A DNA stretch of 64,000 nucleotides from assembly GCA_017477185.1 (NCBI GenBank), contig JAFUXF010000026.1, forward strand, positions 2,215 to 66,214. The letters run 5' to 3'. How positions within the stretch are numbered: position 1 is the stretch's first letter; the number at the start of each line of letters is the position of its first letter. The notes below the pieces were generated by a model. That model was not told where the DNA came from. It ran no database searches and was given only the letters and a program-made list of their open reading frames with translations. Positions 16,931 through 39,861 of this stretch are shown here, piece by piece. Source of the DNA: Alphaproteobacteria bacterium (GTDB lineage Bacteria; Pseudomonadota; Alphaproteobacteria; RF32; CAG-239). Position numbers and translations under genes: made by a program.

Positions 16931-17013
16931 AATTAGTATACTAAACCAGCTAGTTTGAGGTTATACTCTTTTAAATTAAATGTCTAACATCATCTGAGAA
17001 TATCAACAAAGAA

Positions 17014-17769: not shown

Positions 17770-17778
17770 TTTCCTTCC

Positions 17779-21984: not shown

Positions 21985-21995
21985 GTTCAGCCTCC

Positions 21996-23645: not shown

Positions 23646-24318
23646 TATGCGCCTCCTCAGATTCCTCTTGTTTTGCAGTCATATCGACCGTCAGCGTCTT
23701 GAGACTTTGTGTATATTGATATTCTTGCATCAGGCTTTCCAGCATATAAATTTTAGCCAAGCGATTGACGATATCTATGGCTTTGGCATTGACTTCCGCC
23801 GCCATTTGATTAGTGTCGGTCATATCATCATCACGAATTGTTTCTTTGAGAAGTTGGGTTCTGGAAGTGAATGCAAATGCGTATAATCTCGCTATTGAAT
23901 CGCGCATAGCTGCCTGTATAATTTCTTGATGTTGTTTAAAGGCTTCAGAATCATTCCCTTCTCCACTTTTGGGCAGTAATTTTTCTTGTGCTGCTTTGGC
24001 AATCTCCTCATTTGGAGCGTCTGTTAACGATGGGATTCCCTCTATTTGTGTTGCACCCAGTTCTTTTATTTTATCAACATCTAACGTTTGTATTGTACTT
24101 AATCCGCTTTCTGCTTTGTCTTTAATCTCTTTTGCTTTTTCAGAAGCATCCTTAAATTGATCCTTATATTCCTGAATTTTTTCCTGATAAGTCGTTGCTT
24201 TCTCTTGAACTGTTTGCAATAAATTTTGAATTTTTTGAATAGCATCAATATCTGCCTTTGCCGAAAATGACGGTATCAACAGCATGGCAATAAATAGTAA
24301 TAGAAATTGTTTATTCAT
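23638..24318 (-). CDS. secreted 226-aa helical protein, possible VirB5-like minor pilus/tip component
   Basis: Signal peptide MNKQFLLLFIAMLLIPSFSAKA. The size, all-helical K/E/Q-rich composition and position downstream of virB4 resemble VirB5. No diagnostic motif was found. Confidence 0.45.
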   Translation of the reverse strand: MNKQFLLLFIAMLLIPSFSAKADIDAIQKIQNLLQTVQEKATTYQEKIQEYKDQFKDASEKAKEIKDKAESGLSTIQTLDVDKIKELGATQIEGIPSLTDAPNEEIAKAAQEKLLPKSGEGNDSEAFKQHQEIIQAAMRDSIARLYAFAFTSRTQLLKETIRDDDMTDTNQMAAEVNAKAIDIVNRLAKIYMLESLMQEYQYTQSLKTLTVDMTAKQEESEEAHND

Positions 24319-24322
24319 TTTC

Positions 24323-26653: not shown

Positions 26654-26728
26654 AGTACCCTCCTTTGAGAAGCCTTGATTATTTATTCTAACAAAAATTT
26701 GCATGAGGATAAACAATATTCTGCTTCA

Positions 26729-29218
26729 TTACGCAATATTTAAATATTTTGTAACAAAGTTTTCTTCTCCATACTCCTTTATTAAATCTTCAACCAACAA
26801 TACATTTTTACGGCTGGAGTTATATAGTTTCAAATACGGTCCGAGACCACTTAAATCAACATCCAAAATAACAGATTCACCTGTTGCCGGACGTGATAGT
26901 AGGATTGCATAAGGAAATTCGCGATACGATTTGCCGAAAATAAAGTCGATTTCTCGTTGCGTTAAATTCCAATTAGCATAATCTTCCGGCATAGCTTGCG
27001 GATTTCGGAAGAAAATAATCGTTTGGCATTGTCCGCGGATAACCTCACCAACACCTAATTTATCGATAATATTGGGTTGTTGAAAAGCACATAAATACGC
27101 CTGTCGTTTTTTACGACCTTCTTGCAAACCAATCATAAAATAATCTCGGAACATAGGGTGTTTGAGCATTGGCGCGGTTTCATCGATCATGATTAAAGAA
27201 GGAACACCTGTATCACCAACTTCTGACTGTATACGGTGCATAATATAACTGATAACAGCCGGTGCCAGTGTTTCATCTTCAAAAATATGGGTAAAATCAA
27301 AAGCAGTAAACCTTTTTGAACTTAAATCAAGACTATCGGTATCTGCATTAAAAATATTTCCATACTGCTCAGGATTAATCCACCGAAACAATTCTCTCCG
27401 CATATTACCGGTTGGCGAAAAACAGCTTTTGTAAAGGTTTTTCAATATACGTTCTTCCGGTTTAAGATAATCAAATGCCGTGGTTACCGCTCGACCGATT
27501 TCTCTTTCAGACAACGCGTCATCAACCATAGTAATGGCTTTTAACCAACGGCGTAAAAAGGCTCTGTTATTCGGATTATTTTCACAGTCAAACGGATTTA
27601 AGGAAACATTTTTTTCATCCCCGTCAAAACCGATATAAGCCCCTCGAACAGCGCGCGTAAAAATTTCAGCACCACGGTGACGATCAAAGAAAAACACCTT
27701 CAAATCCTTATGGCGCATAGCCTGCCCGGCTAAAAATGTCAGTAACGTCGTCTTACCTTGTCCGGTCGGACCAATAATACAACAGTGCGCAACAGCAGCG
27801 TCTTCGCTTGAAACGTGAAATTGGAATCGATAGGCTGAGCCTGACGTTGTTCGAAATACAGAAATAGCTCCTTCCCCCCAATCACTTTTACTAAAACCTT
27901 CTGCCGGTCGGTCAAAACACACAGCCATCGCTACTACTCTTGATAAATAGCGGTATGTCCTCGGATATGCATCATATGTCGGGAACTGATTAAAGAATGC
28001 TGCCTGCGCAACCCATCCCTCTCTGACCGGCGTAACACTAAACAAGCGGCATATACGTTGGACTTCGCTTTCAGCAAAATCTATCTCCTCCATGTTATCA
28101 CCGCGAATAATGATATCCATGGCATATTCAGTTAAAGCCTGATAATCTGCATCGCTATCTTCAATTGTTGATAAAACTTCACTGTATTGCGCCACCACAT
28201 CTGGAGAAAAGCTCGTTGAGGTTGCCATGCGTTGTTGTTGTATCAGCAAGGCTCGAGCCTTCGGCTTAAACATTGGCTTAATATTGTGCAACAGCGTTAG
28301 CTCACAATCAATTGACAGCAGACTGGCAATCATATTTTCATCCATATAATCCCCTGGAGCACGAATCCCCATGACAATGGCAAACTTTTCTTTATTTCCG
28401 GAGAAAAATTTAATAACACCTTCTTCCTCCGTAAAATGAATGTGGTCAGTTGTCAGCATTTCATTGAGTTGATATCCTTCTGCATTACCTACTTTCGGAT
28501 TTGGTTTACCTATCGGACTGCAAATACGGCTAAACACCGAAAAAGGACTATCTTCTGCCTTACTGTCTTCGGTTTCAAATAAAGGTTTTATTCCATAGTC
28601 ATTTAATGTTGCCATTAGAGATTGAGACGTGTAGTTCAGGTCTTTTAAGGCATCCGTTCTATCGGCAACGGAAAGAATTATGTAGTGCGTATTACTATAA
28701 ACTCTATCTAGAGTATTGTGCCATGTTTCTGATACTTGTTGTAAAATTGCGCTTCCAAAATCACCTTTATCGGTCTCCATTTCTATACGATCTCGCAACG
28801 TTAAAACACGACAAGTTACCTGAAGTTCGCCCATACTGTCTATCCACAGTTTACGCGCCTCCATCATAGACATAACCTTTTCTTCAGTCACGAAACTTAA
28901 ATCTATGCCATCTACCTTAAAAATTCGAGCAAAAGAACCATTATAGCAACGAATCGTTATCCCGTCCGCCATCAATTTTGTAAATGGCAAAAAATCCGCA
29001 ACGCGTGATTCTTGTGGTTGAGGCAAAATATATCGGCCAAATTTTGTTACCCAAACACCAGCAAATGCGGCTGCCGAAATAAATCCGATAACCGCTACAA
29101 TAACTTCCACATTGCTCAAGCCTTGAACAAAAATGGATACAAAATCAAATTCATCAGGGCGCAAATTTATTCCCCTTACTTTTATACAGATTGTTGCTGA
29201 TAACCCGACATTGACCAT
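26729..29218 (-). CDS. virB4: VirB4-family T4SS ATPase
   Basis: Walker A motif GPTGQGKTTLLTFLAGQA. Walker B context SLIMIDETAPML. The 829-aa ORF overlaps virB3 by 65 nt. Its first ~80 aa include a hydrophobic helix, so either the start is internal (e.g. MADGITIRC at ~28972) or the protein carries a VirB3-like N-terminal extension. Confidence 0.9.
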   Translation of the reverse strand: MVNVGLSATICIKVRGINLRPDEFDFVSIFVQGLSNVEVIVAVIGFISAAAFAGVWVTKFGRYILPQPQESRVADFLPFTKLMADGITIRCYNGSFARIFKVDGIDLSFVTEEKVMSMMEARKLWIDSMGELQVTCRVLTLRDRIEMETDKGDFGSAILQQVSETWHNTLDRVYSNTHYIILSVADRTDALKDLNYTSQSLMATLNDYGIKPLFETEDSKAEDSPFSVFSRICSPIGKPNPKVGNAEGYQLNEMLTTDHIHFTEEEGVIKFFSGNKEKFAIVMGIRAPGDYMDENMIASLLSIDCELTLLHNIKPMFKPKARALLIQQQRMATSTSFSPDVVAQYSEVLSTIEDSDADYQALTEYAMDIIIRGDNMEEIDFAESEVQRICRLFSVTPVREGWVAQAAFFNQFPTYDAYPRTYRYLSRVVAMAVCFDRPAEGFSKSDWGEGAISVFRTTSGSAYRFQFHVSSEDAAVAHCCIIGPTGQGKTTLLTFLAGQAMRHKDLKVFFFDRHRGAEIFTRAVRGAYIGFDGDEKNVSLNPFDCENNPNNRAFLRRWLKAITMVDDALSEREIGRAVTTAFDYLKPEERILKNLYKSCFSPTGNMRRELFRWINPEQYGNIFNADTDSLDLSSKRFTAFDFTHIFEDETLAPAVISYIMHRIQSEVGDTGVPSLIMIDETAPMLKHPMFRDYFMIGLQEGRKKRQAYLCAFQQPNIIDKLGVGEVIRGQCQTIIFFRNPQAMPEDYANWNLTQREIDFIFGKSYREFPYAILLSRPATGESVILDVDLSGLGPYLKLYNSSRKNVLLVEDLIKEYGEENFVTKYLNIA

Positions 29219-29447
29219 AGGCCTGTATCATGGTTGATATGTGCGGATCTTTAACACCCATCGCAATGACAATAATATGACCTATAGCTATAGTCGCTAT
29301 AAAAAATATTGGGTTTAAATTCCATATTCCCATACACATAAACATTATCGGGAACTGAATTCCTAAATTGAGTAACGTAGGCAAAAAGGGACCCCATAAT
29401 ATTTTTGGAGGATTTGCCACCGCTTTATAGATCATTTCCCTCATCAC
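29154..29447 (-). CDS. virB3: VirB3-family small inner-membrane protein
   Basis: 97 aa with two hydrophobic helices (LNLGIQFPIMFMCMGIW / IFFIATIAIGHIIVIAMGV). Sits immediately upstream of and overlapping virB4. Confidence 0.75.
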   Translation of the reverse strand: MMREMIYKAVANPPKILWGPFLPTLLNLGIQFPIMFMCMGIWNLNPIFFIATIAIGHIIVIAMGVKDPHISTMIQAYGQCRVISNNLYKSKGNKFAP

Positions 29448-29530
29448 ATTTATCCTTTTTATAAAGAATCCTTATTTTATAGTGTACCTTTTTTTTATGA
29501 ATAATACCTTAATTTTCATACTTATAAAAC

Positions 29531-30070
29531 CTATTCAAAAGACCACATTATATTGTTTTTCTCTTGGCAATATTGTTTGGCCTGCTTACGACTTAACGGT
29601 AATCCCTTATTTCCCCAACTAAAATCATATGTTCCCTTATCATTTTGAATACTCATTGAAATTAAGCCCAGTTTATCTTGCTCTTTTCCCTGAAAAATTG
29701 CTAATTCAATGCATTCTTTTTTATCTAATTCTCGATAAGTAATAACAAAACTTCTTGCCCCCGGCATCACTTGTGTCCCGTCACCATCAGCACCGATTAC
29801 GACTTCTTTGCCAAGAGTATTAAAGATTTTATTATCTTTCAGCTCTCCTTGATAAAACTTTTGCTCTATTGCAACTGTATTGTTCAGTCCCCAGTAATCC
29901 GGACGATTGCGGTAGTACATCCGAACTTTCTCGGTCATTTTTATCAATTCTTTGTCTGCAGCAATAATCTCTGAAGGAGGACGTTTAAAACTGAAGATTA
30001 CACCCAACAAAATGATAAAAAATAATGAAAACAGCCATATATACAAAATCAATTTTTCTTTATTTATCAT
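29531..30070 (-). CDS. small N-terminally anchored protein with two C-terminal Cys, non-canonical pilin-like candidate (position of R64 pilS)
   Basis: The ATG at 30068..30070 lies 1 nt after the stop of the GspF-like gene. It gives MINKEK + LILYIWLFSLFFIILLGVIFSF, a short polar leader plus ~22-aa hydrophobic helix, followed by a ~150-aa domain with Cys...Cys ~50 aa apart. It lacks the G/F/E5 prepilin peptidase site, so calling it a pilin is tentative. Confidence 0.35.
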   Translation of the reverse strand: MINKEKLILYIWLFSLFFIILLGVIFSFKRPPSEIIAADKELIKMTEKVRMYYRNRPDYWGLNNTVAIEQKFYQGELKDNKIFNTLGKEVVIGADGDGTQVMPGARSFVITYRELDKKECIELAIFQGKEQDKLGLISMSIQNDKGTYDFSWGNKGLPLSRKQAKQYCQEKNNIMWSFE

Positions 30071-30071
30071 G

Positions 30072-31187
30072 CTATTTTCCCATTGAATTGGTAATTTGAT
30101 CTTGCATATCAAATACGCCCATTACCGCCCAAGCAATAACGCCACCGATTGATAACAATGCCACCATATTTAAAACACTGGCTTTTTGCTCAATCATGTA
30201 TACAGATTCATCCAACCATTCGTTTGCTAAATTATCAATGGCTTCTTCAAAGTTATCCAACTCAGAATAAACTGACAAATCAGAAATGATTTCCTTATCT
30301 GGAAACTCCAGTTTTGTCTTATAGAGAGCCACACCTAAGTTGTCACCATTATTGATATATTTGAGGCTCTTATCAATTCTTTCTTTTAGATATTTGTTCG
30401 CATCACGACGCAATGCACTCATCGCACTGGAAACAGGAGTTCCTCCTTTAATTAAAGCAGCCATAGCTAAAAGCCAACTGATGCCGGCAAATATCTTATA
30501 CAAAGACCAAGGCGGGAATCGGTCAAAAACAACCCTTGTTTGTCCGACCCAGATACCTATGGTTAAATAAATTGTAATCATGGCTACAGGAAGAGCAGCA
30601 AATGCTACAAACCAGTATTTTTGAATCCACTCGGAAACACCAACCAAGTCAGCGGCTATCCCTGTCCACCGCGTATCCGGAGCTGCCTCCAACATAGGAG
30701 GAACCATGTAGACGCCTATTGCATACAAAATCAAAACAGACATCATGGTCAAAAATGCCGGATATGCAATTGCTCCGACAATCGGGCGAATCATTTTTGT
30801 AGATCCTTCCGTTACTTTAATTAAATTGTGTAATGCACTTTCCAAGTTAGAAACATCACCCGTCGATAGCATCAGCCTTTCTCTTGACGGAGCCCAACCA
30901 TTAAGTGCGTCAGCAAATGTCAAACCATTTTGCAGGGTTTTCATCCATGAAGTAATTGCAATTGCCATCGGTTCATATGGGTTTTTACCATTATCACTAA
31001 CCCCCTGATAAAGCATATCCAAGCCATCCATTAAAGAAAAGCGGTTAGCCATCAAAGATGCTAGTTTTCGATAAAGTTTCAGTCTTGTCTTATTAGAACA
31101 AAGACAAATTATCTGCGCATATTTAATCTCAACTTTACTGATTTTGCGCATATTTTTTTTCAGACTTCTATTTCTTTGTTCTACCAT
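30072..31187 (-). CDS. GspF/PilC/TadB-family polytopic inner-membrane platform protein (R64 PilR-like)
   Basis: 371 aa. It has two soluble helical repeats (FSLMDGLDMLYQGVS... and ISDLSVYSELDNFEEAIDNLANEW), each followed by hydrophobic helices, the T2SS-F family topology. Adjacent to a GspE-type ATPase. Confidence 0.6.
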   Translation of the reverse strand: MVEQRNRSLKKNMRKISKVEIKYAQIICLCSNKTRLKLYRKLASLMANRFSLMDGLDMLYQGVSDNGKNPYEPMAIAITSWMKTLQNGLTFADALNGWAPSRERLMLSTGDVSNLESALHNLIKVTEGSTKMIRPIVGAIAYPAFLTMMSVLILYAIGVYMVPPMLEAAPDTRWTGIAADLVGVSEWIQKYWFVAFAALPVAMITIYLTIGIWVGQTRVVFDRFPPWSLYKIFAGISWLLAMAALIKGGTPVSSAMSALRRDANKYLKERIDKSLKYINNGDNLGVALYKTKLEFPDKEIISDLSVYSELDNFEEAIDNLANEWLDESVYMIEQKASVLNMVALLSIGGVIAWAVMGVFDMQDQITNSMGK

Positions 31188-31198
31188 GTGTTTTTTCC

Positions 31199-32875
31199 TT
31201 AATAAGATGGTCTCTGATCAAGCAACCCGCACCAACGTTCGACTTCTTCTAAGTCAATCCAACCTTTTAACATACGCTCCATTGCCGCATCTTTTAAAGT
31301 TCTTCCGTTTAAATCACTCGTCCAATAATCAATCGCTTTACGCGTTTGGCTTTCAATCATTAGCTCTAAGAACGTGGCATCAGGCAAAATAATTTCAGGA
31401 ACGCAAATACGACCTTTTACACCTCGATTATCGCAATACTTGCACCCCGGACCACGCATATATGTATTTTCAATACCAAAATCACCTAAAGCCATCTTTA
31501 AACGTTTAACTGCCGGATTATCAAGCATTTCTTTAACACTTTTGCGACAATGCGGGCATAATCTTCGAAACAAACGTTGAGAAATCAATCCTTTCATGAG
31601 CTCAGGGTCCGCTAACATAAATTTCTGGATTCCCATATCACGCAAACGAGTAATAATTGCCGGTGCCGAGTTTGCGTGTAAGGTTGACCATACACCGTGT
31701 CCGGACAATGCGCCCTTAAAAGTTAACTCTGCAGCCGATAAAGAACGAATTTCGCCCACCATAATCACATCCGGGTCAGAACGCAAAGCGGCTGATAATG
31801 CTTTAGTAAACATTTCGTCCTTTTCTTCTTCGGTGGTTGCGTTGGTTACAGGCATTTGTCGCGCACCGGGAATCGGATACTCCGGCGGATCTTCAACGGT
31901 AATCAGGTTTAATTCATAATTTTTTTCTTGTAATAATTTAATCATGTTGCGTTGCAAAGTTGTACTTTTACCTGAACCTGTCGGTCCGGCGATAATACTT
32001 AACCCTGTTGGCACAGAACGTAAACGATAAAATAAATTTTCTTCATATTCACCAAAACCTAAAGAAGATAAATCACCACTCCCATCCGGATTATCATCTG
32101 CATACAACAGACGCATAACCAAATACTGCGATCCGAAAGCTATCGGATTAAATTGTAGGCGGATAGCTAACACATTGTGTGGCAACATTAATTTACCATT
32201 TGACCCTCGTAATGGCGTTGAACCAAGTTTTTGTGCGCCCTGAAATTCATTTTGAGTATAGTTCGAATCGGAAATATCGGCAGAAGCAAATGCTGCACGA
32301 ACAAAGGCTTCGCCCCATTCTCCGTCGTACTCCATGACTGTTTGCATCATGCCATTAACACGAAACATAATTTGCGTACTGTCTGCTACGACAACGTGAA
32401 TATCTGACACTTTGTTGGCCGCGGCACGCGCTACAACATTGACAAAGTCACGCTGCATTTGCAGTTGGTTTTCTTCAACTTCCTTCTCAGATAATTCAAC
32501 CGGGCGTGACCGTTCACCATATGCATAAATAGCATTTAGTTCATTTTGAGTCACAAATATCGGGTTACCAAATCGTAACCCTTTTCTTTTGGCAAGAGCC
32601 TGAAAGCTCATGACTCTTCCATCAAAACGGTGGGCCTCTACGACCAGAAAACGTCCATCTGAAAATAATGCCAGCAGACGACGCGTATCATCACCGACCG
32701 ATATCGTTTCCGAATTAGGTAATGTCAGTAACTTATTTCCAGCAACAAATAAAGACTGTATTAAGCCTGTTTTTTCGGTATCATCAGAAGATTTAACATC
32801 ATTTGTCTCTGAAGTTGTTTTTTCAACTGAATCTCCTGTATTTGGCGCAATATTTTGTTTTTCTTCATCGGCCAT
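31199..32875 (-). CDS. GspE/PilB-family secretion/pilus-assembly ATPase (R64 PilQ / TcpT / BfpD-like)
   Basis: Walker A motif IIAGPTGSGKSTTLQ. Asp box VEDPPEY. Walker B motif DPDVIMVGEIR. His box GHGVWSTLHANSA. Tetracysteine CPHC...CKYC zinc motif typical of this family. Confidence 0.9.
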   Translation of the reverse strand: MADEEKQNIAPNTGDSVEKTTSETNDVKSSDDTEKTGLIQSLFVAGNKLLTLPNSETISVGDDTRRLLALFSDGRFLVVEAHRFDGRVMSFQALAKRKGLRFGNPIFVTQNELNAIYAYGERSRPVELSEKEVEENQLQMQRDFVNVVARAAANKVSDIHVVVADSTQIMFRVNGMMQTVMEYDGEWGEAFVRAAFASADISDSNYTQNEFQGAQKLGSTPLRGSNGKLMLPHNVLAIRLQFNPIAFGSQYLVMRLLYADDNPDGSGDLSSLGFGEYEENLFYRLRSVPTGLSIIAGPTGSGKSTTLQRNMIKLLQEKNYELNLITVEDPPEYPIPGARQMPVTNATTEEEKDEMFTKALSAALRSDPDVIMVGEIRSLSAAELTFKGALSGHGVWSTLHANSAPAIITRLRDMGIQKFMLADPELMKGLISQRLFRRLCPHCRKSVKEMLDNPAVKRLKMALGDFGIENTYMRGPGCKYCDNRGVKGRICVPEIILPDATFLELMIESQTRKAIDYWTSDLNGRTLKDAAMERMLKGWIDLEEVERWCGLLDQRPSY

Positions 32876-32881
32876 TTGTCA

Positions 32882-34303
32882 CTACTCTAAAAACATGCCA
32901 TCTCTCAAACTCGGAAGTCTTTTTTCTGATGAAGGAGGTGCTAGAATCTCTTCTTCATCCTCAAAATCATCACTTACGGCATTAATCGGCTTCGTCGGCT
33001 CTTTATCTAATATACCACCGGCAGAGAAGTAGAGATAATCTTTAACACCATTTCTATCTGCAGTAATATATGTTTGTGTTATTTCTTCAATTACATGACC
33101 GGTATTCAGTATTGTTCCCGGTTTAACCATAAATGTTCCCCCGTTTTTATTAATTAGCTTAGCGACCAATACTTCACCTTTACCACTAATCTCCATAATG
33201 GCATATTCATCGGATATCTTCGCTTTCGGTGCTTCTTCATCCTCAGTAATATCAACTAATGCAAATGGGTTTGGTCCTGTTTGCTTACTTTCCTCAAAAG
33301 CCTTTTTCTCAGCTTCTAATTTTGACTTCAGAACGGCAACTTGTGTCTGTAACGTTGTAATCTCTTTTGTATACTTTTCTTTTGCCGCTTTTGCCGCCAT
33401 ATTAGCTCGCTCAATCGACGACGTAATGTTTTTCAAATATTCTTTTTGACGCGAAAGTAATTCTTTTTGAGCCTCTTCTTCTTTGACTAATTGGTTGTAA
33501 AGACGCGCATTATAATCAATCCATTCCTGATTGTTTTTAAGCATTGTCTCTTTATAGGCTTTCAAAACTCTTTCTTGTCTTAGTTTTTCGTACTTGATTG
33601 ATAATTCTTTGAGCTTTCTTTGTTCAATAAGCAATTTTCTTTCCTGCTCTTTTTCCCACTCTTCCTGCGCTCTTTTTCGTTGCAACTCCCTTTCTTTTTC
33701 CTCGTCTTTTGCTCTTTGTCTTTGAGCTTTCATGGCTGCAATTTCATTCTTAATTCTTTCTCTTTTTAATTCCAAAGAAAGCAAACCTGTTTGCTTTTCA
33801 ATATCCGCCATTTGTGAAAATAAATCTTCCTTAACTTGATTCATAATCTTATCACCAAATGAAGCCCCGCTATCAGCTTGCTGTTGAGATGCTTGCAGAG
33901 CTTGACGATCGGTTTCTTCCACAAAATTATTATATGCTTTTAAGATATTGTTATCTTGCGGATTTTCTGCTGGTATCGAGGAAGATAAAGTCGTATTAGT
34001 TTCCTCAGCAGAGGAACTTTCTGCCAAGGATTGTTGCTGATTATCTCCGCCTAGTACCGGTGCCGGTTGAAGCATCGGAGCATTTGGAGCAATATCAGGA
34101 CGACTATCATCACTGTTATTGTTTTCTGTAGACACATCCTGATTATTCACAGCGTCAGGGCTCTCTATCGTTACACCGCCATTTGAAGAGTCTTCATTAT
34201 TTATTGAAGGCAATTCTTGCGCTATAGCAGCTATGCTAATAGCACTTAGAATCCCTACAACAAATAAAAAATACCTTATAGTGCTTTTTATTTTATAAAA
34301 CAT
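32882..34303 (-). CDS. secreted/anchored 473-aa protein with Q-rich region, K/E/R coiled coil and a C-terminal PilP / GspC-HR-like beta domain
   Basis: N-terminal signal/anchor MFYKIKSTIRYFLFVVGILSAISIAAIA. The C-terminal AIMEISGKGEVLVAKLINKNGGTFMVKPGTILNTGHVIEEITQTYITADRNGVKDYLYF fits the HR-domain pattern (A.I..gg....v.~GdtL.gg.V..I....V.L..nG....L.f) of secretin-binding PilP/GspC proteins. Confidence 0.5.
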   Translation of the reverse strand: MFYKIKSTIRYFLFVVGILSAISIAAIAQELPSINNEDSSNGGVTIESPDAVNNQDVSTENNNSDDSRPDIAPNAPMLQPAPVLGGDNQQQSLAESSSAEETNTTLSSSIPAENPQDNNILKAYNNFVEETDRQALQASQQQADSGASFGDKIMNQVKEDLFSQMADIEKQTGLLSLELKRERIKNEIAAMKAQRQRAKDEEKERELQRKRAQEEWEKEQERKLLIEQRKLKELSIKYEKLRQERVLKAYKETMLKNNQEWIDYNARLYNQLVKEEEAQKELLSRQKEYLKNITSSIERANMAAKAAKEKYTKEITTLQTQVAVLKSKLEAEKKAFEESKQTGPNPFALVDITEDEEAPKAKISDEYAIMEISGKGEVLVAKLINKNGGTFMVKPGTILNTGHVIEEITQTYITADRNGVKDYLYFSAGGILDKEPTKPINAVSDDFEDEEEILAPPSSEKRLPSLRDGMFLE

Positions 34304-35603
34304 AGATTACCCCCTCGTAAGACCAAGAACCGCTATCCGTATCGTATTTTATACTATTAATAACAAGTCCTGAAAATTTTGTTAACACGTCCATCCATGT
34401 CATTGGATTTTGATTTACCGTAAATGAAAAACCAACCTGTTTATAAATAATTGTTTTTGGCGGATCATTCGGATTTGCAGCAGGAACCTGCACTGTTTCC
34501 TGTTGATCAGATAAAGAAATCGACAAATCTAAAGATTGAAATAAGTCATTGATAATATTTTTTAACTCAATGTCTGTATAAGCCGGTGGTGATTTAATAG
34601 TTTGCGGACTATAACTGGTGCTGGCAATAAGTGTTCCACCATCTGTAGAAATAGACCGAGCAGCAAACTTCATACCCGACTCATTTAACGCTTGATCGAC
34701 CCATGAAATTCGGCCAACTTGCCTGTTCCAAGAAACGGTTGCCCCACTATCCGAACAATTTATCCCCCCTATTTTCCATCCTGGCGGCATAATTTTAACC
34801 ATATTCATGGCATCTCGGTAGCAATAAAGCAAAATTTCTTCCGGATTTTTAAGTGTTTCCCATGGTTTGATAATAGGCTTTTCTTCAACAACAACCGGCT
34901 TAATTATTTTCGGACGAACAGGTGCAACTATTACCGGCTGTTTTTTCGGAGCAAACAATACATCCACAACAAAAGAGGACAGAACCCAAAAACCAATTAC
35001 GGCAGAAACGGCCACGATCGCATAAAGTTTTATACCCCTTAACGCCTTAACCTTTTGCAACTTAGCGCGTATACCATTTTCTAAAATGGCAGAGAGGTCC
35101 ATTGCCTTGGTATCTTCTATACCCCACTCGGCAGGAGCTATTCTATACCCCCAGTCAGGTACCGTCATCATTGACATAAACTGTTCTTTTGCATCCTCTT
35201 CTTTAAGGAACAGCATATCACCATCGGATAAGATAATATCATTTCTGACGCAGCAGTACCACCACCCGTTATCAACCTTAAAGACAGCCACAAATGATGA
35301 TTTATCAGCAAATGATGTTGCCACAGAGACAGCGAGAGAATTCATTCCCTTGCGATAGCCATCAGAGCTGGAACAAACACCAAATTGAACAACTTTTCCC
35401 GGTTTAAGAGCGAATAGATCCGCTCCTTCTAAAATACTCTCTGCAGTTTCATCAATTTCCGTATATGGATCATCTCTATTTTGTAATGGTTGCCAAAATA
35501 GACCCGCAACATAAGTTTTACCATCAATAACCGTTGTCGCAGCCCATGAACGATTGGCTGTTGCATCAAAATCTTTATCATATAATTTTGCGTTTTCTAA
35601 CAA
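34293..35603 (-). CDS. bitopic inner-membrane pilus-assembly protein (R64 PilO / BfpC-like by size and topology)
   Basis: 436 aa with a ~190-aa cytoplasmic N-domain, a single TM (LYAIVAVSAVIGFWVLSSFVV) and a ~220-aa periplasmic domain. Located between the secretin and the PilP-like gene. Confidence 0.45.
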   Translation of the reverse strand: MLENAKLYDKDFDATANRSWAATTVIDGKTYVAGLFWQPLQNRDDPYTEIDETAESILEGADLFALKPGKVVQFGVCSSSDGYRKGMNSLAVSVATSFADKSSFVAVFKVDNGWWYCCVRNDIILSDGDMLFLKEEDAKEQFMSMMTVPDWGYRIAPAEWGIEDTKAMDLSAILENGIRAKLQKVKALRGIKLYAIVAVSAVIGFWVLSSFVVDVLFAPKKQPVIVAPVRPKIIKPVVVEEKPIIKPWETLKNPEEILLYCYRDAMNMVKIMPPGWKIGGINCSDSGATVSWNRQVGRISWVDQALNESGMKFAARSISTDGGTLIASTSYSPQTIKSPPAYTDIELKNIINDLFQSLDLSISLSDQQETVQVPAANPNDPPKTIIYKQVGFSFTVNQNPMTWMDVLTKFSGLVINSIKYDTDSGSWSYEGVIYVL

Positions 35604-35622
35604 CGGTTTTCCTCTTTTATTC

Positions 35623-37290
35623 TTAGATATTATGCATTCTTGATTCCGGATTTAACGGAGATTCCAAAACAACCGGCGTTAAAACAATAACGAGTATACT
35701 TCTTGTTTTTTTAGCCGATGCCGAACCGCCTAACAAAGAGTTGGTCGCAGAGCCGACGCCCGATTTATCGGTTGTATTTTCAACACGCTCATACCCTGTC
35801 AACACCAAGGACTGGCCTGATGTCATGACAACTTCCTGAGAAAATCCTCGAGATTCAACAATCGGGTTTTGAATATATTGACCACTTCCCCCTTCTGCTG
35901 TTCCACCGTCTAAGCTAACCTTATCCAAAGCCAATAAATCAGAAAGAGTTAAATTAAACATCATCATAATACGACCATGTTCCAAAATACGCGGCAATAC
36001 ATTCATCGTGAAACCTGTTTCAATTTCCTGCGTTTCCGTGGAAATATCATAATAATTAGAATCACCGCCACTGTTTGTCTTTGTAATTTCTGAAATATAA
36101 TTTTGCTTTTTAACAACCTGAATTGGGGCCGGCTTGTTATTGAGCGTCGTTACCGTACCACTGGTAATCAGGCTTGTCGTCGCTTGAGTAGACAAAGCCT
36201 TCATTGCTGCCGAAACATCAAAATTACCAGGCAATAACGTTAAGGATAAATTATCAGCTATAGACGTATCACCAGCTCCAAGTCCGGCAATTCCGATTGA
36301 CTGAGGATTATAAGCATATGTTGCTATTTTTGAGCCATCCTCACCGACTGTAATACTTTTCAACCGTTTTACAAAAGCAGGATCCTGAAACATTGCCGAT
36401 AGATTGAGATTAAAGTAATCACTATCCCCGACATTTACCTGATATACTTTTACAGAAATAGCGACTTGTCGACTTAAGCGAACATTCTGCTCATTAATAA
36501 ACTTTGCAACTTTCTTAATATCATTCGGATTAGCTGTTACAACAACCGTTCCGTTTGACGAATCCATACTCAGTTGCGCAGACGCGTCGATCATTGACTT
36601 GATTGAGTTTTCAATATTGCCCCAAAACTCTAACTTTGCCGAGTTAGACATCGTTAAAGAGTTGGTTGCCCCACTACCGCTGGCAGAACCTCCTAAAGAA
36701 ACATTCATGCTCGGTTCACTAGGAAGACTATACAACACAAATGTTCTGGTAATATTTTTATAAAAATAAATTTCTTTTTTATCGTACTTCCACCAAACAC
36801 CAAAACGAGATCCAATCTCATCTAACAAACCACTTAAAGGCCCTTGATAAGAAACGAGCATTTTGTTTGGCTCCGTCCAATCGACATTGACATTCTTTGG
36901 ATTAGGTTTATTTTGCTGAGCCGTTTCTCTGGCTTCATCATTCATATCACCGGCAAAACTGACACGCACTCCCGTAATTTTGTTAATCATATCACCGATT
37001 TCATACAATGTTATCGGACGATTACTAATCAGTGTAACACCATCTTTTGTTTCAAAATTAGCAGGTAACGGCTGTCCGTCATATTCAATTTCACTAACAT
37101 CGCCGAGCCAAATATCATTTTTTACACGCACAACATCTTCAGCAATTGCTTTATCAGGCAACTTTGCTTTTTCACTCAGGACCGTTGCCTTTTCAACATC
37201 TCTTTCGACCGTTGCATCCATTTCTGTTGAAATAGAACAAGAAGACGTCATCCCCAATAAAAGAATCGCCCCAAATGCATTACGCGTCAT
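35623..37290 (-). CDS. secretin-family outer-membrane channel, lipoprotein type (R64 PilN / TcpC / BfpB-like)
   Basis: C-terminal secretin domain: IQNPIVESRGFSQEVVMTSGQSLVLTGYERVENTTDKSGVG...LLGG...RSILVIVLTPVVL. N-terminal lipoprotein signal MTRNAFGAILLLGMTSSC. The start at 37288..37290 lies 1 nt after the stop of the upstream lipoprotein gene. The ORF track extends to 37386. Confidence 0.85.
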   Translation of the reverse strand: MTRNAFGAILLLGMTSSCSISTEMDATVERDVEKATVLSEKAKLPDKAIAEDVVRVKNDIWLGDVSEIEYDGQPLPANFETKDGVTLISNRPITLYEIGDMINKITGVRVSFAGDMNDEARETAQQNKPNPKNVNVDWTEPNKMLVSYQGPLSGLLDEIGSRFGVWWKYDKKEIYFYKNITRTFVLYSLPSEPSMNVSLGGSASGSGATNSLTMSNSAKLEFWGNIENSIKSMIDASAQLSMDSSNGTVVVTANPNDIKKVAKFINEQNVRLSRQVAISVKVYQVNVGDSDYFNLNLSAMFQDPAFVKRLKSITVGEDGSKIATYAYNPQSIGIAGLGAGDTSIADNLSLTLLPGNFDVSAAMKALSTQATTSLITSGTVTTLNNKPAPIQVVKKQNYISEITKTNSGGDSNYYDISTETQEIETGFTMNVLPRILEHGRIMMMFNLTLSDLLALDKVSLDGGTAEGGSGQYIQNPIVESRGFSQEVVMTSGQSLVLTGYERVENTTDKSGVGSATNSLLGGSASAKKTRSILVIVLTPVVLESPLNPESRMHNI

Positions 37291-37291
37291 T

Positions 37292-38005
37292 TTATTCAAA
37301 AGCATTCTCGTCCTCCATCGTCTCAACAACCAATACACGATTTCCCTTATAAAACGTAGCAATCGGTGCAGGTTTTGCTCGAGCAAAAGTTCTTATCAAC
37401 GCTGCACTTGCATCCGCAAATCGACCACGGAACATCGCTCCTGCCGTTAAAGGATAATTACGATTTGTTTTCCAAACCAACCGCCATCCTGCGCGATCGC
37501 TCCATTCTGTCATCAATTCTTTCAGGTTTTGACCTTCTTCCGCTAGCCAATCTTCAACAGGATCTTCCGGATTTTGGGAATTTAGACCACCATCATCACT
37601 TTCTTCAGCAGCTACACTATCATCATATTCTTCGACCTCATCATCAACAGACGGAGGAATTGCCGCAGACATATTACTACCAGCACCCGTACTTACTACA
37701 TTTTGATCACGAGGTGTTCTCTCTCCATACTGACGATAATCAGCAGCGACGTCTGTGTAGCTGACAAATTCTGAGTTTTTATCACCATCCGGTCCTGCCG
37801 AAACGACTTCCACGCAATCAGGGTCATCCGGCAGATCCATCGGTTGCGTCAGAGTTCCCATGCAGCCGGCAATAAGAACCGAGAGCATTCCTAAACAAAA
37901 TCCATTTTTCATATCCATAAGTAATATTCCCAAATATTTAAATATTTTTTTCATCATACAAACATAAAAATAAATAATCAAGAACGGACAGCGACTTATT
38001 ACCAA
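37292..38005 (-). CDS. lipoprotein with C-terminal TcpQ/PilL-like domain (secretin pilot/partner)
   Basis: Lipobox MKNGFCLGMLSVLIAGC-MGT. The true start is probably the internal ATG at ~37912 or ~37957. The C-terminal WSDRAGWRLVWKTNRNYPLTAGAMFRGRFADASAALIRTFARAKPAPIATFYKGNRVLVV matches the TcpQ C-domain pattern of ICE/R64 PilL proteins. Confidence 0.55.
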   Translation of the reverse strand: MVISRCPFLIIYFYVCMMKKIFKYLGILLMDMKNGFCLGMLSVLIAGCMGTLTQPMDLPDDPDCVEVVSAGPDGDKNSEFVSYTDVAADYRQYGERTPRDQNVVSTGAGSNMSAAIPPSVDDEVEEYDDSVAAEESDDGGLNSQNPEDPVEDWLAEEGQNLKELMTEWSDRAGWRLVWKTNRNYPLTAGAMFRGRFADASAALIRTFARAKPAPIATFYKGNRVLVVETMEDENAFE

Positions 38006-38012: not shown

Positions 38013-39707
38013 TTACCATTTTTGATAATACTTTTTCCACTCCTCATCCTCTTTAGGCCCTTGCGCCGCATTCACTATCTTTACGGTTCTTACAACAAAT
38101 GAATTAGGCTCTCTATCAACAAATGCAGTATTTATCTTTTGATAATCGACGCCATTTGCCGTCAGAATATTATAGAGCATATTAAGGCGTTTTTGCTGCA
38201 AGGCAAACGACTTTGAGCCATCTATACGAATCTCCAACCCCACATCCTTATCATCGACAGCTTTTTTCGCAAATGCCTGTATCCAACGCAACGTCTGCCC
38301 CGAAATTTCTGCCCGATTGGGCTGAAAAGACAACCTGATTTCAGTTGGTAAAATGACTATTTTTTCTTCATCTTCGGTCTGTTTTTTACTTTTTAGGAGA
38401 TTATTTCCTTTTGCTTTCAGCTTCTTGATTGCTTTTTCTCTGTTTTCCTTCGAAAAGACAGAGGAAAGACTATCCAATATGGATTTTTCTTTTGTATTCT
38501 TAACAGTTTTCGTCTTTGTTTTCTTTTTCGGTATAGGAGTTATTTGTCCTTCATCATCACTGATATCTGGAACCAAATCATCTTCATCCAGCAAATCCTG
38601 CGGAATAGGAATCAGCAGATTATCCTGAACTGCAATTTTGGCTGTCTTTTTTTCTAAACTTACTTTATTTTTAGCAATAAGTCCTTCCGCTTTCTTTTTA
38701 GCCGCCTCTGACGAAAAACCTTCTTTTAGAATTTTTTTATTCTTAATAAACTTACTTCCCCGAGCAACAAGCCATGGATTATCGTCTTTATGCTTTTCAG
38801 CCATTGTTTGCCACTTTCTTTTTTGCGGCCGGTCATTACCAACAACTTCCTCCGATGCAGTTAACGACACATTTTCACCTAAACTGGCAACTTGTGACGG
38901 CTCAGGCATCTTCTTTTCTTCTGCCGTCTTAGTGTTTCCCTGCAACGGGATACTCTTCTCTTCTTCTTGCAAAACCTCCTTAACCTGTTCATCCACGGTG
39001 TTTTGATTTTCCGCGGCTTTCTTTTCCTTATATTTTTTGAGATTATCAATTTTGAAAATTTGCTTTGTTGCCTTTATCATAATCGGACCACTCTGCTCAC
39101 TCAAAACAATAGGTTTATGATTTTCGATTTTAGCAGCACTCTCTTCCTCTTTTGCAGGACTTTCCGATTTATCACCAGATAAAGCAATTTGACTCTCTTC
39201 TACCGTCGGTTTTTCCGAATCAAAATCTCCGGAATAAACCAATGGCATATCCGGAATATTATTTAACTCCTCCTGCTTATCTGCGTCTGGAATTTTTTCA
39301 ACAAACAGAGGGATTTCCTCTGCAGTTGCCTCATCTTTTTCCTCTTCTTTTTGAAGTTTAAGAGGCATATTATATGCTACCTTCACCTTTTCTGCCTGAA
39401 TGGGCGGAGATTCAAGGGTTTCCTGATAAACAGGTTCCGATTTTAAGGCGTGTGCGTATAGTTGCGGAGACCGGAAAAACAATGAAATATTTTTACGAGG
39501 GATTTGTACATCATTCTTCGGCGTTTGAGGGGTATAAAAAAACGCTCTGTCCACACCAATAACCACGGACAAAGTAATCACAAAACTATACACGAATGTT
39601 TTGAACCCTATTCTGGTCATAAAACAAACCCCTCGTATTTTAGATAAAATAAACTGCGACTCTTGGCAAGCACATATCATTTTATGCACAATCTTTTTCT
39701 TAATCAT
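38013..39707 (-). CDS. first gene of the array: N-terminally anchored 564-aa K/E-rich protein with a possible C-terminal OmpA/MotB-like domain
   Basis: TM FVYSFVITLSVVIGV near the N-terminus. The start may be internal (MTRIGFKTF at ~39620). The charged, low-complexity middle is followed by C-terminal GLEIRIDGSKSFALQQKRLNMLYNILTANGVDYQKI, which loosely fits peptidoglycan-binding OmpA-like domains. Confidence 0.45.
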   Translation of the reverse strand: MIKKKIVHKMICACQESQFILSKIRGVCFMTRIGFKTFVYSFVITLSVVIGVDRAFFYTPQTPKNDVQIPRKNISLFFRSPQLYAHALKSEPVYQETLESPPIQAEKVKVAYNMPLKLQKEEEKDEATAEEIPLFVEKIPDADKQEELNNIPDMPLVYSGDFDSEKPTVEESQIALSGDKSESPAKEEESAAKIENHKPIVLSEQSGPIMIKATKQIFKIDNLKKYKEKKAAENQNTVDEQVKEVLQEEEKSIPLQGNTKTAEEKKMPEPSQVASLGENVSLTASEEVVGNDRPQKRKWQTMAEKHKDDNPWLVARGSKFIKNKKILKEGFSSEAAKKKAEGLIAKNKVSLEKKTAKIAVQDNLLIPIPQDLLDEDDLVPDISDDEGQITPIPKKKTKTKTVKNTKEKSILDSLSSVFSKENREKAIKKLKAKGNNLLKSKKQTEDEEKIVILPTEIRLSFQPNRAEISGQTLRWIQAFAKKAVDDKDVGLEIRIDGSKSFALQQKRLNMLYNILTANGVDYQKINTAFVDREPNSFVVRTVKIVNAAQGPKEDEEWKKYYQKW

Positions 39708-39741: not shown

Positions 39742-39769
39742 CTTGATTTTTACCCTTTTAAATTATAAT
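39742..39769 (+). promoter_or_regulatory. sigma70-like promoter candidate for the tRNA-Arg gene (TTGATT, ~15-16 nt spacer, perfect TATAAT)
   Basis: cTTGATTtttacccttttaaatTATAATc ends 15 nt before the tRNA 5' end. The AT-rich palindromic -10 could also serve the divergent minus-strand operon. Confidence 0.3.
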
Positions 39770-39784
39770 CAAAAAAAACGAGGT

Positions 39785-39861
39785 GTCAGCGTAGCTCATC
39801 AGGATAGAGCACCAGTTTCCTAAACTGGGGGCAGTGGGTTCAAGTCCCGCCGCTGACGCCA
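39785..39861 (+). tRNA. tRNA-Arg (anticodon CCT)
   Basis: Hand-folded cloverleaf. Acceptor stem GTCAGCG/CGCTGAC. D arm GCTC-ATCAGGAT-AGAGC. Anticodon stem CCAGT/ACTGG with loop TTCCTAA (anticodon CCT). T arm GTGGG-TTCAAGT-CCCGC. Discriminator G, encoded CCA. Confidence 0.85.

What the first reader, a model, noticed from the sequence alone, without database searches (positions are those of the whole stretch)
29531..38005. A type IVb pilus / R64 thin-pilus-like module (secretin, TcpQ/PilL lipoprotein, GspE ATPase, GspF platform, PilP-like) fused into the same operon as the VirB T4SS
Reading 5' to 3' on the minus strand, the genes are: a TcpQ-domain lipoprotein (37292..38005); a lipoprotein secretin (35623..37290); a bitopic assembly protein (34293..35603); a PilP/GspC-HR-like protein (32882..34303); a GspE-family ATPase with a Zn tetracysteine motif (31199..32875); a GspF-family platform protein (30072..31187); and a small pilin-like protein (29531..30070). 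This mirrors the pilL-pilN-pilO-pilP-pilQ-pilR-pilS order of the IncI1 R64 thin pilus and the ICE-borne PilL-PilV systems. Here it runs without a break, via 1-nt spacers and gene overlaps, into virB3-virB4 and the rest of a VirB-type (type IVA) system. R64 pairs its thin pilus with a Dot/Icm-like (type IVB) system, and PAPI-1-like ICEs pair theirs with GI-type systems. A VirB/rvh-like T4SS with a secretin-based type IVb pilus in one transcription unit is not a combination I recognise as described. It could provide an adhesion or attachment pilus for a host-cell-directed T4SS.
Basis: partly seen in the sequence, partly recalled or inferred. Interest (0 to 1): 0.85.

Follow-up and report, generated by a model that had tools for sequence, protein, structure and literature searches.

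The report
Chromosomal thin-pilus plus VirB secretion cluster
An uncultured gut or rumen alphaproteobacterium carries on its chromosome the same pairing of an attachment-pilus machine and a VirB-type transfer machine that IncI2 plasmids use to mate in the gut, but with no DNA-transfer genes nearby; the pairing is therefore not new, although this fixed, lineage-wide version is undescribed.

Summary
All seven ORFs exist and hit the expected families: TcpQ, a PilN/BfpB-type secretin, PilO, weak PilP, a GspE-type ATPase, a GspF-type platform and a PilS/bundlin-like protein. They lie co-directionally upstream of virB3-virB4...virB11.

The novelty claim fails. E. coli IncI2 plasmid R721 (typed MPF_T) and Hydrogenophaga pBPS33-1 carry VirB-type T4SS genes and pilL/N/O/P/Q/R/S genes in one co-directional train. 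The IncI2 TP114 pilus is experimentally required for conjugation in the gut.

What differs here:
- The cluster is chromosomal, in uncultured gut/rumen Alphaproteobacteria, and conserved across at least 25 species-level genomes.
- No relaxase, VirD4, prepilin peptidase, PilM or PilV was found locally.
- The "pilin" has no prepilin cleavage site.
- A conserved extra first gene (38013-39707) belongs to the module.

Most sister lineages transcribe the two systems divergently. There a canonical prepilin and a PilT-like ATPase end the pilus module, and a terminator-like hairpin precedes virB3. The window's subclade lacks all three next to the module, so the tandem layout looks like a real, lineage-specific operon fusion.

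Best reading: a domesticated IncI2-like contact-plus-transfer apparatus. It is a new variant of a known kind, of moderate interest.

The parts
39762..39789 (-). Best promoter-like site upstream of the first module gene (CTGACA-16-TATAAT, 11 of 12).
   Evidence: Consensus scan. This is a pattern match only.
38013..39707 (-). Conserved first gene of the module (564 aa). It has an N-terminal TM helix, a long low-complexity linker and a highly conserved ~92-aa C-terminal alpha/beta domain.
   Evidence: It sits in the same position in every relative examined. The C-terminal domain has 80% mean column identity. No Pfam or NCBIfam hit. There is only a non-significant, in-register match to Pal/OmpA-like (E=1.1). 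The AF2 model is of low confidence and the Foldseek search was uninformative.
37292..38005 (-). PilL-like lipoprotein with a TcpQ domain (LIAGC lipobox).
   Evidence: Pfam TcpQ, 2.6e-16. The lipobox is read from the translation.
35623..37305 (-). PilN/BfpB-type type IVb secretin.
34293..35603 (-). PilO (PAP_PilO), a bitopic assembly protein.
   Evidence: Pfam, 6.1e-21. One TM segment at residues 187-205.
32882..34303 (-). PilP-like protein with a long coiled-coil insert.
   Evidence: TIGR03021, 1.1e-5, below its cut-off. Its position matches pilP in R721 and pBPS33-1.
31199..32875 (-). PilQ/GspE-type assembly ATPase with a tetracysteine motif.
   Evidence: T2SSE, 1.7e-68. It is 74-100% identical across the clade and 34-37% identical to the R721, Hydrogenophaga and Bosea pilus ATPases.
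30072..31187 (-). PilR/GspF-type inner-membrane platform.
   Evidence: T2SSF, 1.5e-23.
29531..30070 (-). PilS1: a bundlin/PilS-like globular domain with two conserved Cys, behind an uncleavable-looking signal-anchor helix. It has no G(-1) or E(+5).
29478..29512 (-). Conserved box TTAAGGTATTATTCATAAAAAAAAGGTACACT in the 83-nt gap before virB3. The same box lies upstream of virB3 in both gene layouts. Here it lacks the 3' hairpin arm and T-run seen in sister lineages.
   Evidence: Expected chance matches in the window: 0.02.
29154..29444 (-). VirB3.
   Evidence: Weak Pfam hit, 0.009. It is 61-91% identical to the clade's orthologues that precede VirB4.
26729..29164 (-). VirB4 ATPase.
   Evidence: CagE_TrbE_VirB, 1.5e-14. 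TIGR00929, 375 bits. PDB TrwK, 1.1e-38.
404..26716 (-). The rest of the T4SS gene train:
- 797-aa and 226-aa proteins;
- a 549-aa protein with a VirB2-like C-terminus (22008-22256);
- a 1401-aa protein;
- VirB8 x2 (17014-17769, 15971-16720);
- VirB9+SPOR (14377-15960);
- a 1397-aa beta-flower/RHS protein;
- a giant VirB10 (3913-10254);
- VirB11 (2931-3899);
- an acidic 562-aa protein and a 218-aa protein.
39785..39861 (+). tRNA-Arg(CCT) abutting the upstream end of the cluster. It is a boundary marker, not part of the machine.
   Evidence: It is not conserved in most relatives.

Best explanation
This is a chromosomally fixed composite derived from conjugation machinery. It joins a PilN/BfpB-type type IVb ('thin') pilus assembly module to a VirB-type (MPF_T-like) type IV secretion system. 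The architecture is the one found on IncI2 plasmids.

By analogy with IncI2 and R64, the pilus module captures and holds a partner cell in the unstable gut or rumen environment. The VirB channel then transfers cargo. The cargo is unknown and is probably not plasmid DNA, because no relaxase or coupling protein is nearby.

In most of the clade the two systems are adjacent and are read divergently from a shared intergenic region. In the window's subclade a rearrangement placed virB3 directly behind the pilin-like gene. The terminator-like hairpin and the proximal promoter-like site that precede virB3 elsewhere are missing. The two systems are therefore probably co-transcribed here.

Shown: gene identities, the two layouts, their conservation, and the plasmid precedents. 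Inferred: pilus formation, co-transcription, the contact-stabilising role and the nature of the cargo.
For: - Family assignments.
- Source organisms are gut/rumen alphaproteobacterial MAGs: 25 species-level genomes carry the module.
- The window's layout is shared by L007-L013, whose ATPases are 88-92% identical.
- The divergent layout appears in L014-L026, L029, L031-L033, L036 and L037.
- The ATPase (74-100%) and VirB4 (about 80-100%) are at least as conserved as syntenic housekeeping neighbours (46-81%), which fits vertical inheritance.
- The flanks are housekeeping genes and GC content is uniform.
- Terminator-like hairpins of -18 to -24 kcal/mol plus a T-run precede virB3 in the divergent layout. 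They are absent in the window's layout (-2 to -8 kcal/mol), where the gap is about 70 nt shorter. No terminator-like site lies in the window's gap.
- Precedents: R721, pBPS33-1 and the TP114 experiments (PMC7508951, PMC9045228).
Against: - The window holds no canonical prepilin, prepilin peptidase, PilT-like ATPase, PilM or PilV, so pilus formation in this subclade is unproven.
- PilS1 lacks the cleavage site and E5.
- A conserved box and a weak promoter-like match (9 of 12) remain in the gap, so an internal promoter is not excluded.
- Some relatives (L001-3, L028) have the pilus module with no VirB genes in the 3-4 kb upstream, so the linkage is not universal.
- No VirB6-like polytopic protein was recognised.
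- There are no transcript or functional data.
Confidence: 0.55

Rival explanations
1. The two systems work independently and are adjacent only because both descend from one ancestral mobile element. On this view the pilus module is a colonisation or aggregation pilus of the TCP/BFP kind, unrelated to T4SS function.
For: - The secretin, pilin-like protein and PilT-like ATPase are closest to BFP-type parts.
- L001-3 and L028 show the module without adjacent VirB genes.
- In L049 the PilT-like ATPase stands alone.
Against: - Adjacency survives in two different layouts across most of the clade.
- In the window's subclade the terminator-like hairpin between the systems is missing.
- The experimentally studied plasmid composites of the same architecture use the pilus for T4SS-mediated transfer (PMC7508951).
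Confidence: 0.2
2. In the window's subclade the module no longer builds an external pilus. Having lost the canonical prepilin and the PilT-like ATPase, its secretin-ATPase-platform core and the membrane-anchored pilin-like PilS1 serve another purpose. They might form a T2SS-like pseudopilus or secretin conduit, or an accessory envelope complex for a T4SS that lacks a coupling protein.
For: - There is no PilS2 or ATP2 homologue in the window, in L004-L013 or in L034-35, whereas nearly all divergent-layout loci have ATP2 and most have PilS2.
- PilS1 has no cleavage site.
- No VirD4 is found in or after the cluster.
- All eight module ORFs are intact and strongly conserved within the subclade.
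Against: - PilS2, the peptidase and ATP2 could sit elsewhere in the genome. Prepilin peptidases are often loners (PMC6668835).
- Only about 81 kb of this genome was visible.
- PilS1 is present equally in lineages that do have a canonical prepilin, so it is not a replacement for one.
- No such repurposing has a precedent that I could test.
Confidence: 0.15
3. The region is part of a still-mobile integrative conjugative element whose relaxase, coupling protein and integrase lie outside the visible sequence.
For: - A tRNA-Arg gene abuts the cluster.
- The closest T4SS and pilus-module relatives in annotated records are on conjugative-type plasmids.
Against: - No integrase, relaxase or VirD4 lies in the window or within 7-10 kb on either side.
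- The tRNA is not conserved next to the cluster in relatives.
- The flanks are syntenic housekeeping genes that have diverged as much as, or more than, the cluster.
- GC content is uniform.
Confidence: 0.07

Closest known systems
IncI2 plasmid transfer region (R721; TP114 and mcr-1 IncI2 plasmids)
   Same: - A VirB-type (MPF_T) T4SS and a PilN-type type IVb pilus are encoded in one co-directional gene train, with pil genes flanking and following the virB genes.
- Both occur in the gut setting. The TP114 pilus stabilises mating pairs and is essential in liquid and in the gut (PMC7508951, PMC9045228).
   Different: - Only 23-34% protein identity.
- IncI2 is plasmid-borne and has a MOBP relaxase, VirD4, VirB1, PilM, the PilT transglycosylase, the PilU A24 peptidase, a cleavable PilS and shufflon PilV. 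None of these was found here.
- Here the order is pil-then-virB.
- Here there are an extra first gene, an uncleavable pilin-like protein, duplicated VirB8, VirB9-SPOR and a 2100-aa VirB10.
Hydrogenophaga sp. BPS33 plasmid pBPS33-1 (and PBL-H3 plasmids); Bosea pANAM02 pilus module
   Same: - These are the closest pilus-module relatives found in annotated records: ATPase 36-37%, platform 31-32%, secretin 27-29%.
- They also carry a ~320-336-aa PilT-like ATPase, like the sister clade's ATP2 (31-34% identity).
- In pBPS33-1, VirB2-B3-B4...B9-B10 runs directly into TcpQ-PilN...PilV.
   Different: - Their VirB4 is only 23% identical, so it belongs to a different T4SS lineage.
- They have TraI/TraD, PilM and PilV.
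- They are plasmid-borne.
R64 (IncI1) thin pilus and PAPI-1/ICE PilL-PilV clusters
   Same: The pilL-N-O-P-Q-R-S gene families and order are shared. The pilus is an accessory to a conjugative T4SS (PMC3548315).
   Different: These are paired with MPF_I or MPF_G systems rather than a VirB type. They include a peptidase, PilV and a cleavable pilin.
Conjugative VirB clusters of alphaproteobacterial plasmids (Microvirga pMVF16-3, Erythrobacter aureus, Sphingosinicella, Paracaedimonas)
   Same: These are the closest T4SS relatives: VirB4 30-38%, VirB11 35-41%, VirB9 28-34%.
   Different: They carry a MobA/MobL relaxase and VirD4 and have no pilus module.
Bundle-forming pilus (BFP) of EPEC
   Same: The secretin is closest to BfpB among solved structures. 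The PilS1 profile hits BfpA. The sister-clade module has a BfpF-like second ATPase.
   Different: BFP is a stand-alone adhesion pilus with its own peptidase and minor pilins, and no T4SS is attached.

Membership tests
Type IVb pilus system (TXSScan definition, PMC6668835: pilB, pilC, pilQ, pilA and pilD mandatory) | Secretin of the T4b (PilN/BfpB) type | tested here: met
Type IVb pilus system (TXSScan definition, PMC6668835: pilB, pilC, pilQ, pilA and pilD mandatory) | Assembly ATPase (GspE/PilB family) and inner-membrane platform (GspF/PilC family) | tested here: met
   T2SSE 1.7e-68 and T2SSF 1.5e-23.
Type IVb pilus system (TXSScan definition, PMC6668835: pilB, pilC, pilQ, pilA and pilD mandatory) | Major pilin with a class III signal peptide (G at -1, E at +5) | tested here: not met
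   PilS1 has the pilin globular domain but no G(-1)/E(+5), and this is true of all orthologues. A six-frame scan of the window finds no prepilin motif except a lookalike in the VirB4 N-terminus. A canonical prepilin (PilS2) exists only in sister lineages. The rest of the genome was not visible.
Type IVb pilus system (TXSScan definition, PMC6668835: pilB, pilC, pilQ, pilA and pilD mandatory) | Prepilin peptidase (A24); it may be encoded away from the locus | tested here: inconclusive
   None was found in the window, in about 17 kb of extra flank or in any related locus (Pfam; tblastn with three A24 peptidases). Whole genomes could not be scanned.
R64/IncI-type thin pilus (pilL-pilV) | Gene order pilL-pilN-pilO-pilP-pilQ-pilR-pilS | tested here: met
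   Compare R721.
R64/IncI-type thin pilus (pilL-pilV) | PilM, PilT lytic transglycosylase, PilU peptidase and PilV adhesin with shufflon | tested here: not met
   No homologues in the window or in the related loci.
VirB-type (MPF_T) type IV secretion system | VirB4 plus VirB3, VirB8, VirB9, VirB10 and VirB11 | tested here: met
VirB-type (MPF_T) type IV secretion system | VirB2 pilin and VirB6 polytopic channel protein | tested here: inconclusive
   A VirB2/TrbC-like segment occurs only as the C-terminus of a 549-aa ORF (Pfam 4.7e-4; 55-57% identity to small VirB2 genes of relatives). No polytopic VirB6-like protein was recognised.
VirB-type (MPF_T) type IV secretion system | Conjugative function: VirD4 coupling protein and relaxase | tested here: not met
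   None in the cluster or within about 7 kb downstream. The rest of the genome was not visible.
IncI2-type composite (MPF_T T4SS plus T4b pilus in one train) | Co-directional, contiguous virB and pilL/N/O/P/Q/R/S genes | tested here: met
   Window. R721.
IncI2-type composite (MPF_T T4SS plus T4b pilus in one train) | Plasmid replicon of the IncI2 lineage, with close sequence relationship | tested here: not met
   The context is chromosomal housekeeping genes. Identity to R721 is only 23-34%.
Rickettsiales vir homologue (rvh) T4SS | Duplicated VirB4, VirB8 and VirB9, several large VirB6-like proteins, and closest relatives in Rickettsiales (the feature list is from my own knowledge) | tested here: not met
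   Only VirB8 is duplicated. VirB4 and VirB9 are single, and no VirB6-like protein was recognised. Within the plasmid collection searched, the nearest VirB4s are plasmid VirB4s of Hyphomicrobiales and Sphingomonadales. No Rickettsiales sequences were compared directly.

The most novel reading that the evidence does not exclude
A conjugation-derived T4SS plus type IVb pilus was domesticated early in a large clade of uncultured gut and rumen Alphaproteobacteria. It then became a lineage-defining, contact-dependent delivery apparatus for effector injection, interbacterial killing or epibiosis rather than plasmid transfer. In the window's subclade the two machines were fused into one operon, and the canonical prepilin and the retraction ATPase were dropped. 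That would mean the pilus machine has been converted into a non-filament, T4SS-integrated envelope sub-complex built around the membrane-anchored pilin-like PilS1.
Probability: 0.15. Interest if true: 0.7.

Novelty: new variant of a known kind. Interest (0 to 1): 0.4.

Why it matters
The pairing of a thin pilus with a VirB-type T4SS is already known from IncI2 plasmids, so it needs no new category.

The new element is a relaxase-less, chromosomally fixed and very strongly conserved version. The ATPases are 74-100% identical across many species. It occurs in an abundant but uncultured group of human-gut and rumen Alphaproteobacteria about whose biology almost nothing is published; my searches found no paper on their secretion systems.

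If the apparatus is used for contact-dependent delivery to other cells, it would be a central clue to how these bacteria live.

The two layouts also give a natural experiment on how accessory pili and T4SSs become transcriptionally coupled. One is divergent, with a terminator-like hairpin before virB3. The other is tandem, with that hairpin deleted.

Tried and rejected
- **Is the 562-aa protein after VirB11 a VirD4?** No. It is acidic and low-complexity, has no Walker A motif and has no similarity to three VirD4s.
- **Is the sister-clade 320-aa ATPase the displaced VirB11?** No. It scores best as PilT family, and the window's VirB11 is a true VirB11.
- **Does the window's subclade keep that ATPase or the canonical prepilin elsewhere?** Unresolved.
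  - A homologue search gave 1424 hits. None of the top 120 sits on a contig whose length matches the known contigs of this subclade.
  - Two look-ups of length variants found only another divergent-layout locus (L048) and a lone ATPase in a more distant lineage (L049).
- **Fold of the first gene's C-terminal domain.** The profile search against PDB gave only Pal/OmpA-like at E=1.1. The single-sequence AF2 model had pLDDT 58 and Foldseek gave no match with E <= 0.001. No assignment was made.
- **AF2 model of PilS1.** pLDDT was 50, so it was unusable and no fold search was run.
- **The tool's terminator scan.** It missed the sister-clade hairpins, probably because of its loop-length or G-C-pair limits. 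They were shown by RNAfold instead.
- **The conserved box as a canonical sigma-70 promoter.** The spacing is inconsistent between species. Only L032 (10 of 12) and the window (9 of 12) pass the scan, so its function is left open.
- **tRNA-Arg as an island integration site.** It is not conserved in relatives.
- **Literature searches on this clade's secretion systems.** They returned nothing.

Full report
**Observation**

The window carries one long minus-strand gene train from 39707 down past position 404.

- TcpQ domain, 37292-38005: 2.6e-16.
- Secretin, 35623-37386: 1.7e-15. Its best NCBIfam model is the PilN-family type IVB secretin TIGR02520, at 258.8 bits against a cut-off of 287.65.
- PAP_PilO, 34293-35603: 6.1e-21.
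- A coiled-coil protein, 32882-34303: only a weak PilP match, TIGR03021 at 1.1e-5, below its cut-off.
- T2SSE ATPase, 31199-32875: 1.7e-68. The CPHC...CKYC motif is visible.
- T2SSF platform, 30072-31187: 1.5e-23.
- A small PilS/bundlin-like protein, 29531-30070: PilS_N 3.9e-5.

The secretin is 27-29.5% identical over its full length to annotated PilN-family and BfpB secretins. It matches the solved BfpB structure sequence at 1.5e-49.

Downstream on the same strand lie VirB3 (weak), VirB4, two VirB8, VirB9 with a SPOR domain, a 2113-aa VirB10 homologue and VirB11.

**Corrections to the anatomy**

- The module begins one gene earlier than reported. A 564-aa membrane protein (38013-39707) precedes the TcpQ gene in every relative examined. 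Its ~92-aa C-terminal domain has 80% mean column identity.
- The pilin-like/virB3 junction is an 83-nt gap, not a 1-nt spacer.
- The pilin-like protein, here called PilS1, is homologous to type IVb pilins. A profile of its orthologues hits bundlin BfpA at 9.4e-5, and two Cys are invariant.
- PilS1's N-terminus is a basic stretch followed by a TM helix. No glycine at -1 or glutamate at +5 appears in any orthologue, so it cannot be a normal prepilin.
- A six-frame scan of the window for a class III signal motif finds only a lookalike in the VirB4 N-terminus.
- No A24 prepilin peptidase, PilM, PilV, VirD4 or relaxase occurs in the window. None occurs in about 17 kb of additional flank from the same organism, or in any related locus.

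**Source and context**

- An identical ATPase sits on ENA metagenome contigs.
- Twenty-five species-level genomes carry close relatives. All are MAGs from human, mouse, chicken or ruminant guts, labelled Alphaproteobacteria, 'uncultured Azospirillum sp.' or Candidatus Scatocola.
- NCBI places Scatocola in Rhodospirillales incertae sedis. From memory, this corresponds to the GTDB order RF32; I did not test that.
- The cluster is flanked by housekeeping genes (cmk, rpsA, accA/accD, dnaK and others), and GC content is uniform.
- In the sister lineages the flanking genes are syntenic between species and have diverged as much as, or more than, the pilus ATPases: 46-81% against 78-84%.

This indicates a vertically inherited chromosomal locus rather than a recently acquired element.

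**Two layouts**

I ran tblastn with all of the window's proteins against the fetched loci and looked at gene-level context.

- *Tandem layout.* The window's closest relatives (ATPase 88-92% identical; L007-L013) share its order: first gene-PilL-PilN-PilO-PilP-ATPase-platform-PilS1-VirB3-VirB4 and onward.
- *Divergent layout.* Most other lineages (ATPase 74-81% identical) have the VirB operon upstream on the opposite strand. It is read divergently from a shared intergenic region of about 330 bp and starts with one to three VirB2/TrbC genes.

In the divergent layout the pilus module continues beyond PilS1 with two further elements.

- Zero to three copies of a canonical prepilin, PilS2. Its N-terminus (E/D)Q(S/T/K)G|RSM(V/I)EMLGVLAIIGVL is invariant in 17 copies, and it hits Bundlin at 1e-14.
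- A 320-aa ATPase that scores best as PilT family.

Neither gene is present in the window or next to the module in its subclade. Whether they lie elsewhere in those genomes could not be determined. A few loci (L001-3, L028) show the pilus module with no VirB genes in the 3-4 kb upstream, so the linkage is frequent but not universal.

**The junction**

The gap before virB3 contains a box, TTAA(G/C)-N5-6-T(A/T)TTCATAAA. It is conserved upstream of virB3 in both layouts, whatever gene precedes it. Only 0.02 chance matches are expected in the window.

| Feature before virB3 | Divergent layout | Window's subclade |
|---|---|---|
| Hairpin after the box | -18 to -24 kcal/mol, followed by a T-run | 3' arm and T-run missing; -2 to -8 kcal/mol |
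| Proximal -10-like site | TATAAT or TATCAT, about 30 nt before the ATG | Missing |
| Box to ATG | 125-145 nt | About 55-66 nt |

The consensus scan finds no terminator-like site in the window's gap, and only 9-of-12 promoter-like matches. The best minus-strand promoter-like site in the region (11 of 12) lies upstream of the first gene, at 39789-39762.

The tandem layout therefore looks like a genuine, lineage-specific operon fusion. A residual internal promoter or operator at the conserved box cannot be excluded without transcript data.

**Comparison with what is known**

Annotated plasmids, however, show the same pairing with VirB-type systems.

- *E. coli IncI2 plasmid R721.* MOB-suite types it MPF_T/MOBP. 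On one strand it encodes TrbM, TcpQ-family PilL, PilM, VirB1, VirB2, VirB3, VirB4, VirB9, VirB10, VirB11 and VirD4. These are followed by PilN, PilO2, PilP, the ATPase, the platform, the major pilin, a transglycosylase, an A24 peptidase and PilV.
- *Hydrogenophaga pBPS33-1.* VirB2...VirB10 runs straight into TcpQ-PilN-PilO2-PilP-ATPase-platform-pilin-ATPase-PilM-PilV.
- *IncI2 plasmid TP114.* Its pilus has been studied experimentally. Deleting pilS abolishes transfer in broth and cuts transfer in the mouse gut more than 1000-fold, which the authors attribute to mating-pair stabilisation (PMC7508951; see also PMC9045228).

The claim that this combination is undescribed is therefore wrong.

The window's proteins are only remote relatives of these systems: 23-34% identity to R721, and 27-37% to the Hydrogenophaga and Bosea pilus modules. 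The window's T4SS is closest to conjugative VirB clusters on Microvirga, Erythrobacter, Sphingosinicella and Paracaedimonas plasmids (VirB4 30-38%). Those clusters have a relaxase and VirD4 but no pilus module. The two halves thus have different nearest relatives, which suggests that the pairing arose more than once. 'rvh-like' is not supported.

**Mechanism**

The best-supported reading is a domesticated, IncI2-like contact-plus-transfer apparatus. The type IVb machine would provide partner capture in a flowing gut environment, and the VirB channel would provide transfer.

The missing relaxase and coupling protein, the giant repeat-rich VirB10, the VirB9-SPOR fusion and the string of unannotated proteins after VirB11 point to a cargo other than plasmid DNA. 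I consider this an inference only.

For the window's subclade, pilus formation itself is unproven, because no cleavable pilin, peptidase or retraction ATPase was visible. There are three rival readings:

- independent systems that are adjacent by descent;
- a repurposed, non-filament secretin-ATPase complex;
- a still-mobile element.

They are listed with their evidence in the rival explanations.

**Verdict**

This is a new variant of a known kind, of moderate interest. Its main value is as a conserved and probably lifestyle-relevant feature of an abundant uncultured gut lineage, and as a clean example of operon fusion by terminator loss.

Noticed in passing
window 39785-39861 (+): A tRNA-Arg(CCT) gene lies 78 nt from the start of the cluster's first gene. 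Among 14 related loci checked, it is found only in L008.
   Followed up: partly
window about 29050-29164 (-), VirB4 N-terminus: The VirB4 N-terminus reads FVQG|LSNVEVIVAVIGFISAAAFAGVW. This is the only class-III-signal-like motif (G, x4, E, then a hydrophobic run) in a six-frame scan of the window. It is conserved in the sister clade (L036). It is probably just a TM anchor, but it is curious next to a pilus machine that lacks a prepilin.
   Followed up: no
window 3913-10254 and 10187-14380 (-): The VirB10 homologue is about 2100 aa. About 15 beta-flower (PF21785) and RHS repeats precede its TrbI domain. The adjacent 1397-aa protein is built from the same repeats. This recalls the giant repeat-bearing VirB10 homologue CagY (from my own knowledge).
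   Followed up: no
window 21996-23645 (-); VirB2-like part at 22008-22256: The only VirB2/TrbC-like sequence is the C-terminus of a 549-aa coiled-coil ORF. Sister lineages have small VirB2 genes plus 262-aa and 1490-aa proteins with an embedded VirB2-like segment.
   Followed up: partly
window 14377-15960 (-): VirB9 (CagX domain) carries a C-terminal SPOR peptidoglycan-binding domain.
   Followed up: no
window 1136-2824 (-): The 562-aa protein after VirB11 is extremely acidic and contains three EEYEWEYV(D/E) repeats. It has no family hit. It could be a cargo or chaperone-like protein.
   Followed up: no
window 17779-26716 (-): No polytopic VirB6-like protein was recognised among the large unannotated T4SS-cluster proteins of 797, 226 and 1401 aa. 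The 1401-aa protein has only a signal peptide.
   Followed up: partly
L036 17093-19990; also L001, L037, L048, L049: Next to the sister-clade pilus module lies a 226-232-aa VWA-like protein that is 89-93% identical between species. It is far more conserved than its neighbours and is followed by a PP2C phosphatase and a Ser/Thr kinase.
   Followed up: no
L049 10001-10975: In one more distant lineage the PilT-like ATPase stands alone between an SH3_4 gene and a Redoxin gene, with no pilus module. In the window's closest relatives, M20(-)-SH3_4(+) sits directly upstream of the module's first gene. In the window that block (43819-45520) is displaced and inverted, with a glycosyltransferase, an amylase and the tRNA in between.
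   Followed up: partly
L005 13712-16147: In one assembly of the same organism VirB4 is split into two ORFs of 214 and 576 aa. This could be a frameshift, an assembly error or strain-level inactivation.
   Followed up: no
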